From: Clostridia bacterium
Lineage (GTDB): Bacteria; Bacillota; Clostridia; TANB77; CAG-508
DNA length: 64,000 nucleotides
NCBI GenBank assembly: GCA_045643465.1
Contig: JAZUKV010000034.1
Location: forward strand, 2,107 to 66,106
Reading direction: 5' to 3'
Shown here: positions 21,967 through 24,936 of the stretch, piece after piece
Position numbering within the stretch: position 1 is the first letter of the stretch
Layout: the number at the start of each line of letters is the position of its first letter
Notes under the pieces: model-generated
The model's input: the letters and a program-made list of their open reading frames with translations, nothing else
Database searches by the model: none
Told to the model about the DNA's origin: nothing
Position numbers and translations under genes: made by a program

Positions 21967-24936
21967 CTACTGGATACAGAAGCCAAAGGCCAAGCCATAG
22001 CCGCTGTAGTACGCATTGCTGTTGCCGACGTAGCCGCTGCTATACACATAGCGCACATCGTTCGTACGGCCAAGATTAGGGGAGCGGAGCCACCAGTCGC
22101 GGGTCGAGCCAGCTTCAGTATACGCAACTCTATTAGTATTAGCACTTACATTGTAAGATGAAATATAATATTTTGATTCTGTATTTCCAAATTTATTATA
22201 ACCATCTCCACTTGCTCCTAATCCCTCTGTTGTATTTCCACTGTATTGTCCAGTACCATACATTTCTCTGTCTGAGAATAACCATATTGAATCTGCTATA
22301 TCATCATTCAAAGTATAACTGCTTGTTGATGTACCTGTTACATATTTTATCTTCTTTGGTGTTATTACAGCTTGTAAATCGCTTTCTATACAACTATATA
22401 AACATGTATCACTTGTTAGGTTTACATCTCCCGCATATCCTTCATTTGTTTTTGCATTTTTACCTATTAATGTTGCTCTTATGTGTGATACACTATATCC
22501 TCCAGCATTTCTTGCATTTGATCCATAATTTGTTTCATTACTATCTAGTGTAACTCCAGTTCCAACATATGAATTTTTACTTTGTGATGGATTCCATCTT
22601 GTATAGTAACAACTATTATTACTAATTGTGTTATATAACATTCCTGCTCCATCTCCATATTGATTATAAACACTTCCACTTGCTATTGTACTATTTAATG
22701 TTAAACTTACACTTTTTGTGTCTCCACATAGCATACAATCTTCAAATACTGTTTTATCTTGTACTGCTTTTATTTCTGCCCATGTCATATCATGTAAACT
22801 TATATTCTCTCTTGCATCTACCTGAGCTTGTGATCTAGTTACATTGTTACTACCAGAATCTGTTAAATATGCTGATGATGTAGTTTCACTTCCGTTAGCA
22901 GCTACTGAATGAGTTATAATTTTAACATAATATTCTCCACTTCCTTCTGAAGTTTCTTCATACTCATGTGTTACATAACTTTTGTTATAATTTGCTCCAA
23001 CAGCTGGTCCAAACGTTAAACCTAGTGTATTTCCATTTGCGTCAACGTCTTGATTTATTCCGTATATTTGTACTGCATATTTGATTGGCGCCATCTTCCA
23101 TTGTGCATATAATGTTATATCTCCTATATCAGTTACAGATTGCTCATCTGTATATGCAGTTCCACTTCCATCAGGTTCTGTATTCCATCCAGTAAATTTA
23201 TATCCGTCTTTTGTATAACCATTTGCAGTTAAATTGGTTGCTACATCATAAGGAATTGTTTGTGGATTCATTGTCCCAGTTCCTGTGTTACTATCAAATG
23301 TAACAGTGTAACTTGTTGGTCGTGGTGATGAAATGCAGAAGCCAAAGGCCAAGCCAATGTCGCGGTACACATTGTAGTTGCCGCCGATGTAGCCGCTGTA
23401 ATCCACAAAGCGCACACAGTACGTATAGCGAAGATTAGGGGAGCGGAGCCACCCGCTGTAGGTAGAGCCAGCTTCACTATACGCAACTCTATTAGTGTTA
23501 TCACTTACATTGTAAGATGAAATATAATATTTTGATTCCGTATTTCCAAATTTATTATATCCATCTCCACTTGCTCCCAATCCCTCTGTTGTATTTCCAC
23601 TGTCTTGTCCAGTACCATACATTTCTCTTTCTGAGAATAACCATATTGAATCTGCTATATCATCATTCAAACTACAATTACTTGTTGAAGTACCTGTTAC
23701 ATATTTTATCTTCTTTGGTGTGATTACACTTCTTAAATCACTTTCTATACAGCTATATAAACATGTATCACTTGATAGGTTTACATCACCTGCATACGTT
23801 ACATCTGTTTTTGTATTTTCTCCTATAAGTGTTGCTCTTATATGCGATGTTGAATATCCTCCTGCGTCTCTTGCATTTGAACCATAACTTCCTCCATTTG
23901 TTGCCGCTGCATTTTGACTGGTACTTGGATTCCATCTCGTATAGTAATAACTATTATTACTAATTGTGTTATATAACACTCCTGCTCCATCTCCATATTG
24001 ATTATATGTACTTCCACTTGCTATTGTACTATTCAAAGTTAAACGTACACTCTTAGTATCTCCACATAGCATACAATCTTCAAATACTGTCTTATCTGGC
24101 ACTGCTTGTATTTGTGCCCATGTCATTTCATGTAAATTAATATTTTCTCTTGCAGTTACCTGTGCCGCAGTTCTAGTTACATTATTACTACTTGAATCTG
24201 TTAAGTATTCTGATGATGTAGTTTCACTTCCATTTGCTGCTACAGTATGTGTTATTATTTTTACATAGTAATTTCCTGGATTTTCCGCTATTTCCTCATA
24301 TTCGTGTGTTACATAGCTATTGTTATAATTAGCTCCAACAGCTGGTCCAAATGTTAAACCTAGTATATATCCATTTGCGTCAACGTCTTGATTTATTCCG
24401 TATATTTGTACTGCATATTTGATTGGCGCCATCTTCCATTGTGCATATAAAATAACTGTTGCCCCATTTGTAGCTGTTAAATTACTAACTTCTTCTCCGT
24501 CGGCATAACTTGTTCCACTTCCATCAGATGCTGTATTCCATCCAGTAAATTCATATCCCGTTTTTGTAAACTTATTTGCAGTTAAATTGGTTGCCACATT
24601 ATAAGAAATTTCTTGTGGATTCATTGTTCCTGTTCCTGTATTACTATCAAATGTTACAATATAGTTTGCCTCAATTGTAAATTCATTTGTACTTGTTGCC
24701 ATATCAGTAAAATATGATATTGTGCCATTTATATTAAACATACATAATAATATGATTAGTATTGCTATTATTCTAACTATCCAAGTAATTGGATTTACTG
24801 TTTTAGTTCCAACTTTTATTAGTTTTTTTGGTCTGCTTTTGTTATTATTTTTAATATTACTTTGGCTAACATTTTTATTTCTAATAGATTTTTTCTTTTC
24901 ATTAGAAACTATTTTATGATGTTTACCATATTTCAT
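21967..24936 (-). CDS. SipW-signal surface protein with two tandem (InlB B-repeat + DUF6273/CLec-like) modules; putative DGR target
   Basis: TM plus ISYFTD signal; TFDSNTGTG..FTGWNT..LYAQW repeats; WLRSP...GLAFGFCI twice. Confidence 0.85.
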   Translation of the reverse strand: MKYGKHHKIVSNEKKKSIRNKNVSQSNIKNNNKSRPKKLIKVGTKTVNPITWIVRIIAILIILLCMFNINGTISYFTDMATSTNEFTIEANYIVTFDSNTGTGTMNPQEISYNVATNLTANKFTKTGYEFTGWNTASDGSGTSYADGEEVSNLTATNGATVILYAQWKMAPIKYAVQIYGINQDVDANGYILGLTFGPAVGANYNNSYVTHEYEEIAENPGNYYVKIITHTVAANGSETTSSEYLTDSSSNNVTRTAAQVTARENINLHEMTWAQIQAVPDKTVFEDCMLCGDTKSVRLTLNSTIASGSTYNQYGDGAGVLYNTISNNSYYYTRWNPSTSQNAAATNGGSYGSNARDAGGYSTSHIRATLIGENTKTDVTYAGDVNLSSDTCLYSCIESDLRSVITPKKIKYVTGTSTSNCSLNDDIADSIWLFSEREMYGTGQDSGNTTEGLGASGDGYNKFGNTESKYYISSYNVSDNTNRVAYSEAGSTYSGWLRSPNLRYTYCVRFVDYSGYIGGNYNVYRDIGLAFGFCISSPRPTSYTVTFDSNTGTGTMNPQTIPYDVATNLTANGYTKDGYKFTGWNTEPDGSGTAYTDEQSVTDIGDITLYAQWKMAPIKYAVQIYGINQDVDANGNTLGLTFGPAVGANYNKSYVTHEYEETSEGSGEYYVKIITHSVAANGSETTSSAYLTDSGSNNVTRSQAQVDARENISLHDMTWAEIKAVQDKTVFEDCMLCGDTKSVSLTLNSTIASGSVYNQYGDGAGMLYNTISNNSCYYTRWNPSQSKNSYVGTGVTLDSNETNYGSNARNAGGYSVSHIRATLIGKNAKTNEGYAGDVNLTSDTCLYSCIESDLQAVITPKKIKYVTGTSTSSYTLNDDIADSIWLFSDREMYGTGQYSGNTTEGLGASGDGYNKFGNTESKYYISSYNVSANTNRVAYTEAGSTRDWWLRSPNLGRTNDVRYVYSSGYVGNSNAYYSGYGLAFGFCIQ
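21973..22110 (-). other. Putative DGR variable region 1 (C-terminal)
   Basis: ~59% GC, no A-ending codons, differs from VR2 at codon positions 1-2 of NNY codons. Confidence 0.85.
23332..23469 (-). other. Putative DGR variable region 2 (internal)
   Basis: Same GC-rich scaffold TGGCTCCGCTCCCCTAAT...GGCTTGGCCTTTGGCTTCTG; no A-ending codons. Confidence 0.8.

What the first reader, a model, noticed from the sequence alone, without database searches (positions are those of the whole stretch)
21967..23469. DGR variable-region signature in a surface protein
Two 46-codon cassettes (21973-22110 and 23332-23469) are far GC-richer than the window (VR1 ~59% by count) and have no A-ending codon. Aligned with one codon gap each, 16 codons differ at positions 1-2 with position 3 unchanged. 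Fourteen of these are NNC/NNT pairs derivable from AAC/AAT (e.g. CGC/TAC, GAC/AGC, CGT/TAT, GAT/TGT, TAT/ATT); the exceptions are TGG/GGG and GCG/GTG. The scaffold WLRSPN..VR.V..G..GLAFGFC is fixed. This is the pattern of adenine-specific mutagenic retrohoming into a CLec-fold target.
Basis: partly seen in the sequence, partly recalled or inferred. Interest (0 to 1): 0.92.

Follow-up and report, generated by a model that had tools for sequence, protein, structure and literature searches.

The report
Orphan DGR-type variable cassettes, surface protein
A secreted two-headed surface protein of a low-GC gut bacterium has two hypervariable tips that look written by a diversity-generating retroelement, but no such retroelement is in the genome assembly.

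Summary
ORF 21967-24936 (-) encodes a 989-aa protein with two tandem Flg_new + DUF6273 modules. Each module ends in a 46-codon cassette of 55-59% GC in a roughly 27% GC genome. The cassettes have no A-ending codon, against 48% in the rest of the gene. Sixteen codons differ only at positions 1-2.

The cassette family is a real DGR target type. Homologous cassettes in 8 phage and viral loci and 2 bacterial genomes lie 0.5-1 kb (one about 2.9 kb) upstream of a template repeat (TR). Nearly all their mismatches fall on TR adenines, and the AAC codons of those TRs coincide with the variable columns here. Close relatives differ about 50% in the cassette however similar the backbone (P0017: 9 of 338 outside, 17 of 34 inside). 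One metagenome strain matches the module body at 958 of 968 bases but has an unalignable cassette.

The own assembly (98% complete) holds no TR and no reverse transcriptase, and the two other genomes with close homologues hold no TR. The two cassettes also differ by a codon register shift.

Verdict: these are orphan DGR-type variable regions. The donor is either off the assembly or recently lost. It is a new member of a known kind, of moderate interest.

The parts
21967..24936 (-). Target gene, 989 aa. It has a basic N-terminus, one hydrophobic span, and then two tandem modules of Flg_new + DUF6273.
   Evidence: ORF and translation. Pfam Flg_new 3.8e-23 in 2 stretches and DUF6273 1.8e-21 in 2 stretches. 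Tandem duplication with 1338-1359 nt spacing at 78-90% identity.
23332..23469 (-). Internal variable-region-like cassette (VRn), 46 codons, ending module 1 and followed by an in-frame linker.
   Evidence: GC 55.1%, no A-ending codon. No hairpin downstream (z -0.49).
21973..22110 (-). C-terminal variable-region-like cassette (VRc), 46 codons, ending one codon before the stop.
   Evidence: GC 58.7%, no A-ending codon.
21977..21997 (-). Invariant GC-rich 3' end of VRc (encodes GLAFGFC). It is identical at 23336-23356 in VRn. It sits where the IMH of a DGR target would lie.
   Evidence: Repeat family D9 and codon listing. Metagenome contigs break or branch here. The IMH role is inferred.
21940..21965 (-). 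Hairpin starting 2 nt after the stop codon: about 10-11 bp stem with a 4-nt loop (GACT on the sense strand).
   Evidence: DNA fold -10.8 kcal/mol, z -3.97, 0 of 200 shuffles as good. The same-place hairpin in G027 (z -5.05) differs by two compensatory pair changes (read by eye), and L007 also has one (z -4.45). It was not called a terminator-like site.
21970..23085 (-). Module 2 without its Flg_new repeat (372 aa). This is the part that was modelled.
20395..21875 (+). ISL3-family insertion sequence (transposase 20521-21705), inserted 91 nt downstream of the target's stop codon.
   Evidence: Pfam DDE_Tnp_ISL3 5.2e-57. Terminal inverted repeats at 20395-20419 and 21851-21875. One full copy in the assembly. 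Contigs of run X7 leave the window sequence at 21875, while X2 holds the junction.
25075..26221 (-). Upstream genes in the same direction: a SipW-type signal peptidase (25075-25578) and a camelysin/TasA-like protein with a SipW-dependent signal peptide (25622-26221).
   Evidence: Peptidase_S26 and Peptidase_M73. TIGR02228 1.2e-25 and TIGR04088 5.4e-07. G027 has the same gene order upstream of its homologues.

Best explanation
The two cassettes are DGR-type variable regions. Each forms the tip of a DUF6273 (C-type-lectin-like) head of a secreted two-headed surface protein encoded in a SipW/TasA-like operon. Their sequence was most likely written by mutagenic retrohoming. In that process a template repeat rich in AAC/AAT codons is reverse-transcribed with random bases placed opposite adenines, and the cDNA replaces the cassette. 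The invariant GC-rich 3' end and, for the terminal cassette, the hairpin after the stop codon would anchor the cDNA. The donor (template repeat, reverse transcriptase, accessory gene) is not in this assembly, so these are orphan targets. Either the donor sits on an unbinned or mobile element and acts in trans (my estimate 0.45), or it was lost recently from this lineage (0.35). Shown: the signature, membership of the target family, and cassette-restricted divergence among relatives. Inferred: the retrohoming itself, the roles of the 3' end and hairpin, and the whereabouts of the donor.
For: (1) Codon signature. There are 0 of 92 A-ending codons in the cassettes against 429 of 897 elsewhere. 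Sixteen codon pairs differ only at positions 1-2. There is no third-position difference in the core, although the flanking module pairs differ at 84 of 395 third positions.

(2) Homologous cassettes with a cis template. In FP_Taranis gp68 (annotated 'DGR target', RT downstream) 15 of 16 mismatches are at TR adenines. In MT835664 the figure is 17 of 17. Of 11 IMG/VR loci, 7 have a TR-like copy, with 17/18, 15/16, 16/16, 12/12, 18/19, 17/17 and 21/24 mismatches at TR adenines. Two bacterial genomes of another family show 13/14 and 16/17. DGR-type RT ORFs are present in L192, L194, L196 and L203.

(3) Translated phage TRs carry Asn codons at the columns that vary here.

(4) Across 72 distinct cassettes from 89 family proteins, residues unreachable from AAY (K, E, Q, M, W) make up 3.3% of cassette interiors against 16.1% elsewhere, p = 3e-71.

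(5) Cassette divergence is decoupled from backbone divergence. P0017 has 9/338 mismatches outside and 17/34 inside. Thirteen relatives show 35-63% inside at 2.7-28.6% outside. Run X7 has a contig with 10 differences in 968 bases of the module body. Its cassette does not align at 80% and reads, by hand from two loose ends, as 15 codons (14 NNY and one GCG), one codon shorter.

(6) A hairpin follows the terminal cassette, and in the same-genus genome G027 it shows two compensatory changes. This fits the published requirement for structure rather than sequence, and the published 4-34 bp distance (PMC3240598, abstract and section 10).

(7) Published statements that DUF6273 is C-lectin-like with the VR at its C-terminus: PMC10743442, PMC11792537 and bioRxiv 10.1101/2024.10.15.618418, passages only.
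Against: No TR-like sequence exists in the own genome. Apart from the two cassettes hitting each other, the best blastn hit is 40 nt at E 0.026. RVT_1 finds 0 matches in an assembly rated 98% complete and 0.57% contaminated. Seven DGR-type RT proteins give a best tblastn E of 0.89.

The two other genomes with close homologues lack a TR. G027 is 76% complete and its only RT has group II intron motifs. In G232 the type of its one RT was not determined. The six genuine DGRs found in 6 of the 29 other genomes of the genus have unrelated templates.

The two cassettes need one codon gap each to keep third positions in register, so one unaltered template cannot have written both. Relatives also vary in cassette length.

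The internal cassette has no hairpin. The hairpin stem is AT-rich and its loop is GACT, where the published consensus is a GC-rich stem and a GRNA loop.

No within-sample read heterogeneity could be measured. The one raw-read run laid only 2 reads.
Confidence: 0.8

Rival explanations
1. Relic. The cassettes were written by a DGR that this lineage no longer has. They are now frozen, and the strain-to-strain differences are inherited variants shuffled by homologous recombination and module gain or loss.
For: No TR or RT in the assembly. There is no TR in 3 of 3 genomes with close homologues. G000 has no RT of any kind, G027's only RT has group II intron motifs, and G232's single RT was not typed. 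A register shift separates the two cassettes. Module shuffling is seen directly: run X2 joins the 3' flank to a VRn-like sequence, and run X1 has a module about 97% like module 2 that is followed by the linker instead of the stop. The G232 homologue's cassette is less GC-rich and has A-ending codons, as expected of decay. A preprint reports phages that keep DUF6273 targets without the DGR.
Against: Both cassettes keep 0 A-ending codons and 55-59% GC in a strongly AT-biased genome, and their third positions are identical. That argues against long neutral decay. Near-saturated cassette divergence at 1-3% backbone divergence requires very recent activity somewhere in the population.
Confidence: 0.35
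2. Not a retroelement product. Diversifying selection on a ligand-binding loop, together with gene conversion among the tandem modules, produced the pattern.
For: The gene holds tandem, recombining modules. Surface adhesins are often under diversifying selection (general knowledge). No donor was found.
Against: Selection does not explain host-atypical codons (C-ending 54 of 92 against 51 of 897) or the absence of A-ending codons. It also does not explain third positions that are homogenised while positions 1-2 are scrambled, because gene conversion would homogenise all three. The K/E/Q/M/W depletion and the match of variable columns to AAC codons of real templates are likewise unexplained.
Confidence: 0.04
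3. The GC-rich cassettes were imported ready-made by recombination with a phage-borne homologous variable or template repeat, not diversified in place.
For: Phages carry homologous cassettes with up to 54% amino-acid identity and the same GFC ending. One holder of the gene is a viral-fraction metagenome.
Against: No nucleotide match to the cassette in 50,697 phage records, in 72,556 plasmid records, or in viral contigs by two exact patterns. The two cassettes share every third position with each other, which fits a common local template better than two imports.
Confidence: 0.05

Closest known systems
Faecalibacterium phage FP_Taranis gp68 (NC_047914.1), a DUF6273 protein annotated 'DGR target', with its RT gp71
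   Same: DUF6273 domain with the variable region at its C-terminal end. It has the WWLRSP motif and a G-F ending. tblastn identity to module 2 is 28.6% over 91% of the query. The TR lies about 1 kb downstream, and 15 of 16 mismatches are at TR adenines.
   Different: It is a phage tail-region gene with one variable region and a complete cis DGR. Ours is chromosomal, lies in a SipW/TasA-like operon, has two cassettes in one ORF, and has no DGR.
Uncultured phage and viral contigs MT835664.1 and IMG/VR loci L194, L196, L198, L201-L204
   Same: Same cassette architecture (GST..WWLRS...G.A/C.GFC). Cassette identity is up to 54%. The Asn codons of their TRs fall on our variable columns.
   Different: All have a TR 0.5-1 kb downstream (L202 about 2.9 kb). 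DGR-type RT ORFs were found in L194, L196 and L203. None matches our cassette at nucleotide level.
Treponema denticola TvpA (2y3c) and Bordetella phage BPP-1 Mtd (1yu0), the solved DGR variable proteins
N-terminal DUF6273 domain of the Thomasclavelia ramosa IgA peptidase (9qa6)
   Different: It is part of an M64 peptidase. I saw no report of hypervariation in it.
Gut Toutatisvirus phages that keep two DUF6273 targets after losing the DGR (bioRxiv 10.1101/2024.10.15.618418)
   Same: This is a precedent for DUF6273 targets that persist without TR or RT (one passage read).
   Different: Those are phage genomes. There are two separate genes, not two cassettes in one ORF.

Membership tests
Diversity-generating retroelement (complete system) | A template repeat that matches the variable region except at TR adenines | tested here: not met
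   blastn of both cassettes against all 35 contigs finds only each other. No TR in G027 or G232. No TR in phage, plasmid, viral or metagenome collections. The assembly is a draft of 35 contigs, so absence from the organism is not proven.
Diversity-generating retroelement (complete system) | A DGR-clade reverse transcriptase in the genome | tested here: not met
   RVT_1 gives 0 matches in G000. tblastn with 7 DGR-type RTs gives a best E of 0.89. The same RVT_1 search finds RTs in 18 of 29 other genus genomes. Six of those carry the DGR-type motif, a motif I recalled rather than took from a call.
Diversity-generating retroelement (complete system) | Adenine-specific substitution spectrum | not testable with these tools
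   It cannot be tested without a TR. The indirect signature is met: differences only at positions 1-2, NNY codons, no A-ending codon, and K/E/Q/M/W depletion.
DGR target site | Invariant 3' end of the VR (IMH) followed within 4-34 bp by a hairpin with a 7-10 bp GC-rich stem and a 4-nt GRNA loop (PMC3240598, section 10) | tested here: inconclusive
   Terminal cassette: 21-nt invariant GC-rich end, then a hairpin with a roughly 10 bp stem and a 4-nt loop, about 13 nt after that end by my count. It is significant against shuffles and shows 2 compensatory changes in G027. However, the stem is AT-rich and the loop is GACT. Internal cassette: same 3' end but no hairpin.
DUF6273 / C-type-lectin-fold DGR target proteins | DUF6273 domain with the variable stretch at its C-terminal end | tested here: met
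   Pfam PF19789 at 1.8e-21 in two stretches, the best at residues 809-981. The cassette spans residues 943-988.
DUF6273 / C-type-lectin-fold DGR target proteins | Homologues that are demonstrable DGR targets | tested here: met
   Ten loci (FP_Taranis, MT835664, 6 clear IMG/VR loci, G355, G557) have a cis TR, with 12-18 mismatches nearly all at TR adenines.
DUF6273 / C-type-lectin-fold DGR target proteins | C-type-lectin fold | tested here: inconclusive
DGR target (functional criterion) | Hypervariability restricted to the VR among closely related sequences | tested here: met
   P0017: 9/338 mismatches outside against 17/34 inside. Thirteen relatives show 35-63% inside. The X7 contig has 10/968 differences in the module body and an unalignable cassette. 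Within-sample heterogeneity was not measurable.
SipW-dependent secreted / biofilm-matrix proteins | SipW-cognate signal peptide (TIGR04088) next to a SipW gene | tested here: inconclusive
   SipW-type peptidase and a TIGR04088-positive neighbour lie directly upstream. P0001 itself has a hydrophobic N-terminal span and, by eye, a similar motif, but no TIGR04088 hit at E <= 0.01. Two family members carry precomputed PF12389 hits.

The most novel reading that the evidence does not exclude
The chromosomal adhesin cassettes are rewritten in trans by a DGR carried on a phage or other mobile element that is not part of the chromosome. That element's own receptor-binding protein would carry the homologous DUF6273 cassette. 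Infection or lysogeny would then reprogramme a host surface protein, and the many DGR-less members of this 89-protein family would be a hidden pool of such 'borrowed-mutator' targets. RT-first DGR pipelines would not detect them.
Probability: 0.2. Interest if true: 0.8.

Novelty: new member of a known kind. Interest (0 to 1): 0.5.

Why it matters
DGR surveys start from the reverse transcriptase and then look for a template and its targets. Targets that have no donor in the same bin are therefore never counted. Here a bacterial family of 89 database proteins with 72 distinct cassettes carries the full sequence signature of DGR writing. It sits in SipW/TasA-type surface operons, often with two or three variable heads per protein. 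None of the three genomes I could inspect holds a matching template. If the donor is mobile, this is a route by which a phage or plasmid mutator diversifies host adhesins. If the donor is lost, the family shows how fast DGRs turn over relative to their targets. Either way it gives concrete, testable target sites (invariant 3' end plus hairpin) in ruminant-gut Clostridia.

Tried and rejected
Template in the own genome: blastn at word size 7 against all contigs found none.

RT in the own genome: none by RVT_1 and none by tblastn with 7 DGR-type RTs.

Template in relatives. The VR DNA was searched in 60 relatives, and only G027 gave a real match. Two hits of 28-30 nt in G051 and G052 were taken as chance. 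G027's five cassette copies are all targets and none is A-rich. G027's only RT has group II intron motifs. The six DGR loci of the genus have unrelated templates.

Exact-pattern scans. The first viral scan gave 0 hits. Of these 140, 0 were related by blastn at E <= 1e-4. The 3'-end pattern gave 3 viral loci, all unrelated.

Small ORFs over a possible TR: a protein search with the 55-aa cassette alone (candidates of 30-97 aa) found no candidate.

The search for related loci with the module alignment A1 on viral contigs confirmed nothing.

blastn 'distant' against phages and plasmids gave no match.

The first structure job, on the last 197 aa alone, gave pLDDT 44.2 and was discarded because the domain was truncated.

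Raw-read run X20 laid only 2 reads, so within-sample variability could not be assessed. The 'other letters' table was cut (154 rows not shown) and shows no row inside the cassette, so I read the X7 cassette only from loose ends.

Terminator reading of the hairpin: the scan did not call it, and no T-run follows it.

A cis DGR destroyed by the IS: the IS is a bounded 1,481-bp unit with inverted repeats and sits 91 nt past the stop. The X7 strain lacks it. What lies beyond the junction in X7 could not be read, and the 30-letter loose end is not in the window.

Literature. No paper holds both 'diversity-generating' and 'SipW'. Seven papers hold 'DUF6273'. I read passages of four of them. The target tables of PMC5758913 and PMC8144416 may list this family, and I could not see them. 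PMC8144416 was seen only as a search listing.

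Full report
WHAT IS THERE

The finding lies on the minus strand, inside one ORF (21967-24936, 989 aa). The protein starts with a basic stretch and a single hydrophobic span. It then repeats one module twice. Each module is a Listeria-Bacteroides repeat (Flg_new, 3.8e-23) followed by a DUF6273 domain (1.8e-21). The two modules form a tandem duplication with 1338-1359 nt spacing and 78-90% nucleotide identity. The gene sits directly downstream of a SipW-type signal peptidase, a camelysin/TasA-like protein with a SipW-dependent signal peptide, a 401-aa protein with weak LPXTG-like matches, and a 910-aa SpaA-domain protein. 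The context is therefore a secreted or surface-fibre operon on a chromosome. MutS and a radical-SAM/TRAM enzyme lie next to it. The genome is a 1.5-Mb, 35-contig draft with each contig at 23-31% GC. It is rated 98% complete and 0.57% contaminated.

THE OBSERVATION

Every element checks out.
- Cassette GC is 58.7% and 55.1%, against 32.3% for the rest of the gene.
- None of the 92 cassette codons ends in A, whereas 429 of the other 897 do. C-ending codons are 54 of 92 against 51 of 897.
- With one codon gap in each cassette, 16 codon pairs differ only at positions 1-2. Fourteen are NNY pairs and two are NNG pairs.
- The core has no third-position difference. The rest of the two modules differs at 50/46/84 sites for positions 1/2/3 over 395 codon pairs.

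Third positions are thus homogenised while positions 1-2 are scrambled. Ordinary divergence would hit third positions most. Gene conversion would homogenise all three positions. Selection would not impose host-atypical codons. A common template with variable adenines explains all of this together.

IS IT A DGR TARGET TYPE?

Yes, at the level of the family. A tblastn search of phage genomes found Faecalibacterium phage FP_Taranis gp68. It is annotated 'DUF6273 domain-containing protein ... DGR target', with an RT three genes downstream. The search also found an unannotated faecal phage contig. In both, the C-terminal cassette has a downstream copy. The mismatches fall on the copy's adenines in 15 of 16 and 17 of 17 cases.

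A scan of viral contigs with an alignment of ten cassettes gave 11 loci. Seven have such a template, with 12-21 mismatches almost all at template adenines. DGR-type RT ORFs are present in four of the phage and viral loci I checked. Two bacterial genomes from another family of the class carry a more distant homologue with a template about 640 nt downstream (13/14 and 16/17).

When the phage templates are translated in the cassette frame, their Asn codons fall on the columns that vary in our cassettes and their close relatives. Papers state that DUF6273 resembles a C-type lectin domain and carries the VR at its C-terminus (passages of PMC10743442, PMC11792537 and bioRxiv 10.1101/2024.10.15.618418).

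IS VARIATION CONCENTRATED IN THE CASSETTE?

Yes. The protein search returned 89 family proteins with 72 distinct cassettes. Inside the cassettes, residues that AAY mutagenesis cannot produce (K, E, Q, M, W) are 3.3%, against 16.1% elsewhere (p = 3e-71). Cassette divergence from module 2 stays at 35-63% whether the backbone differs by 2.7% or by 28.6%. The clearest case is P0017, with 9 of 338 mismatches outside the cassette and 17 of 34 inside.

Contigs of public runs were laid on 21700-23320. Run X2 holds the window's own terminal cassette (4 differences in 705 bases). Run X7 has a contig with 10 differences in 968 bases of the module body, and its contigs break at the invariant 3' end of the cassette. 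The loose ends there, read by hand, spell 15 codons (14 NNY and one GCG), which is one codon fewer than in the window.

WHAT IS MISSING

No template exists in the assembly. No reverse transcriptase of any kind exists there either. RVT_1 finds RTs in 18 of the 29 other genomes of the genus, and six of those have DGR-type motifs and clean TR/VR pairs. Their templates and targets are unrelated to this cassette.

Close homologues of the protein are rare in the genomes searched:
- 4 of 29 other genus genomes;
- 1 of 200 other genomes sampled from the order;
- 2 distant hits among 399 other genomes sampled from the class.

The two genomes with close homologues, G027 (same operon order; proteins of 1651 and 939 aa with several cassettes) and G232, also have no template. 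No nucleotide match to the cassette was found in phage, plasmid, viral-contig or metagenome collections. My one metagenome scan was wasted on a pattern that was too loose.

Downstream of the gene there is no room for a lost cis cassette. A bounded 1,481-bp ISL3 element sits 91 nt past the stop and is absent in the X7 strain. Beyond it lies a convergent zinc-ribbon gene with its own terminator-like inverted repeat.

COMPLICATIONS

- The two cassettes keep third positions in register only with a gap in each, so the fixed GNG codon sits one codon apart. One unchanged template cannot have written both.
- Cassette length also varies by a codon among relatives and within G027. The shifts fall where the phage templates have runs of Asn codons. 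Slippage on AAY repeats or diverged templates are possible causes, but that is inference.
- The internal cassette has the invariant 3' end but no hairpin.
- Modules clearly shuffle. X2 joins the 3' flank to a VRn-like sequence. X1 has a module about 97% identical to module 2 that is followed by the inter-module linker.

MECHANISM, AS FAR AS SUPPORTED

The cassettes are the C-terminal strands of a lectin-like head. Their variable codons are those that a template would carry as AAC or AAT. The invariant GC-rich 3' end lies where an IMH would lie. The terminal cassette is followed, 2 nt after the stop, by a hairpin with a roughly 10 bp stem and a 4-nt loop (z -3.97). G027 preserves this hairpin through two compensatory pair changes, which I read by eye. 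That fits the published finding that stem structure, not sequence, matters and that such hairpins lie 4-34 bp from the VR. It departs from the published consensus of a GC-rich stem and a GRNA loop.

I therefore read the cassettes as DGR-written variable regions whose donor is not in the assembly (confidence 0.8 for DGR origin). I cannot decide between a donor on an unbinned or mobile element acting in trans (about 0.45) and a recently lost donor (about 0.35). Trans action and remote targets are documented for DGRs (PMC5758913, passages). Loss of the DGR with retention of DUF6273 targets is reported for phages.

COMPARISON AND NOVELTY

As a target type this is known: DUF6273/C-lectin-like VRs of gut phages. 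It cannot be filed as a DGR, because the two defining parts, TR and RT, were tested and not found. What is new is modest:
- a bacterial, chromosomal, SipW-operon family;
- two or three variable heads per protein;
- no matching template in the three genomes inspected.
I found no paper that links SipW-type proteins to DGRs, but supplements were closed. Interest is 0.5. The bold reading, a mobile DGR rewriting host adhesins in trans, stays open at about 0.2.

Noticed in passing
window 20395-21875: ISL3-family insertion sequence (transposase 20521-21705, 25-nt imperfect terminal inverted repeats). It is a single full copy in the assembly. It is present in run X2 and absent at this site in run X7, so it is a polymorphic insertion 91 nt downstream of the target gene. 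The G232 homologue also has a transposase (Mutator family) directly downstream.
   Followed up: partly
window 27821-30553 (repeats 28615-29509): A 910-aa protein with six SpaA prealbumin-like domains, encoded partly by 276-282-nt tandem repeats at 75-82% identity. With the 401-aa weakly LPXTG-like protein (26266-27471), the TasA/camelysin-like protein and the SipW-type peptidase, it forms a surface-fibre operon with the variable protein.
   Followed up: partly
L038-L043 (G004, G023, G029, G003, G017, G010): Six of the 29 other genus genomes carry complete DGRs with clean TR/VR pairs (11-21 mismatches, nearly all at TR adenines). They target other protein types: short C-terminal VRs ending in ...LLVL, and an FGE-like type. 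DGRs are therefore common in the genus even though this genome has none.
   Followed up: partly
L037 (G027:C24) 4863-9818 and 10010-12829: The G027 homologues are a 1651-aa protein with three modules and a 939-aa protein. Two of the modules in the long protein have cassette regions identical over 231 nt, which points to a recent duplication or an assembly collapse. The same cassette also occurs on two other contigs (C121, C53).
   Followed up: partly
Read laying on window 21700-23320, runs X1 and X2: Module shuffling between strains. X2 has a contig that joins the gene's 3' flank to a VRn-like cassette, consistent with a one-module deletion variant. X1, a viral-fraction metagenome, has a module about 97% identical to module 2 that is followed by the inter-module linker.
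   Followed up: no
L220 (G355:C7) about 4031-4778; L221 (G557:C19) about 9772-10519: Two genomes from another family of the class carry a distant cassette homologue (...GVAPACCII) with a template about 640 nt downstream (13/14 and 16/17 mismatches at TR adenines). It closely resembles the faecal phage contig MT835664.1, so these are probably prophage DGRs.
   Followed up: partly
L009 (G027:C116): An RT ORF truncated at the contig end, with YADD and QGxxxSP motifs and a maturase-like tail. I read it as a group II intron RT, from recalled motifs.
   Followed up: no
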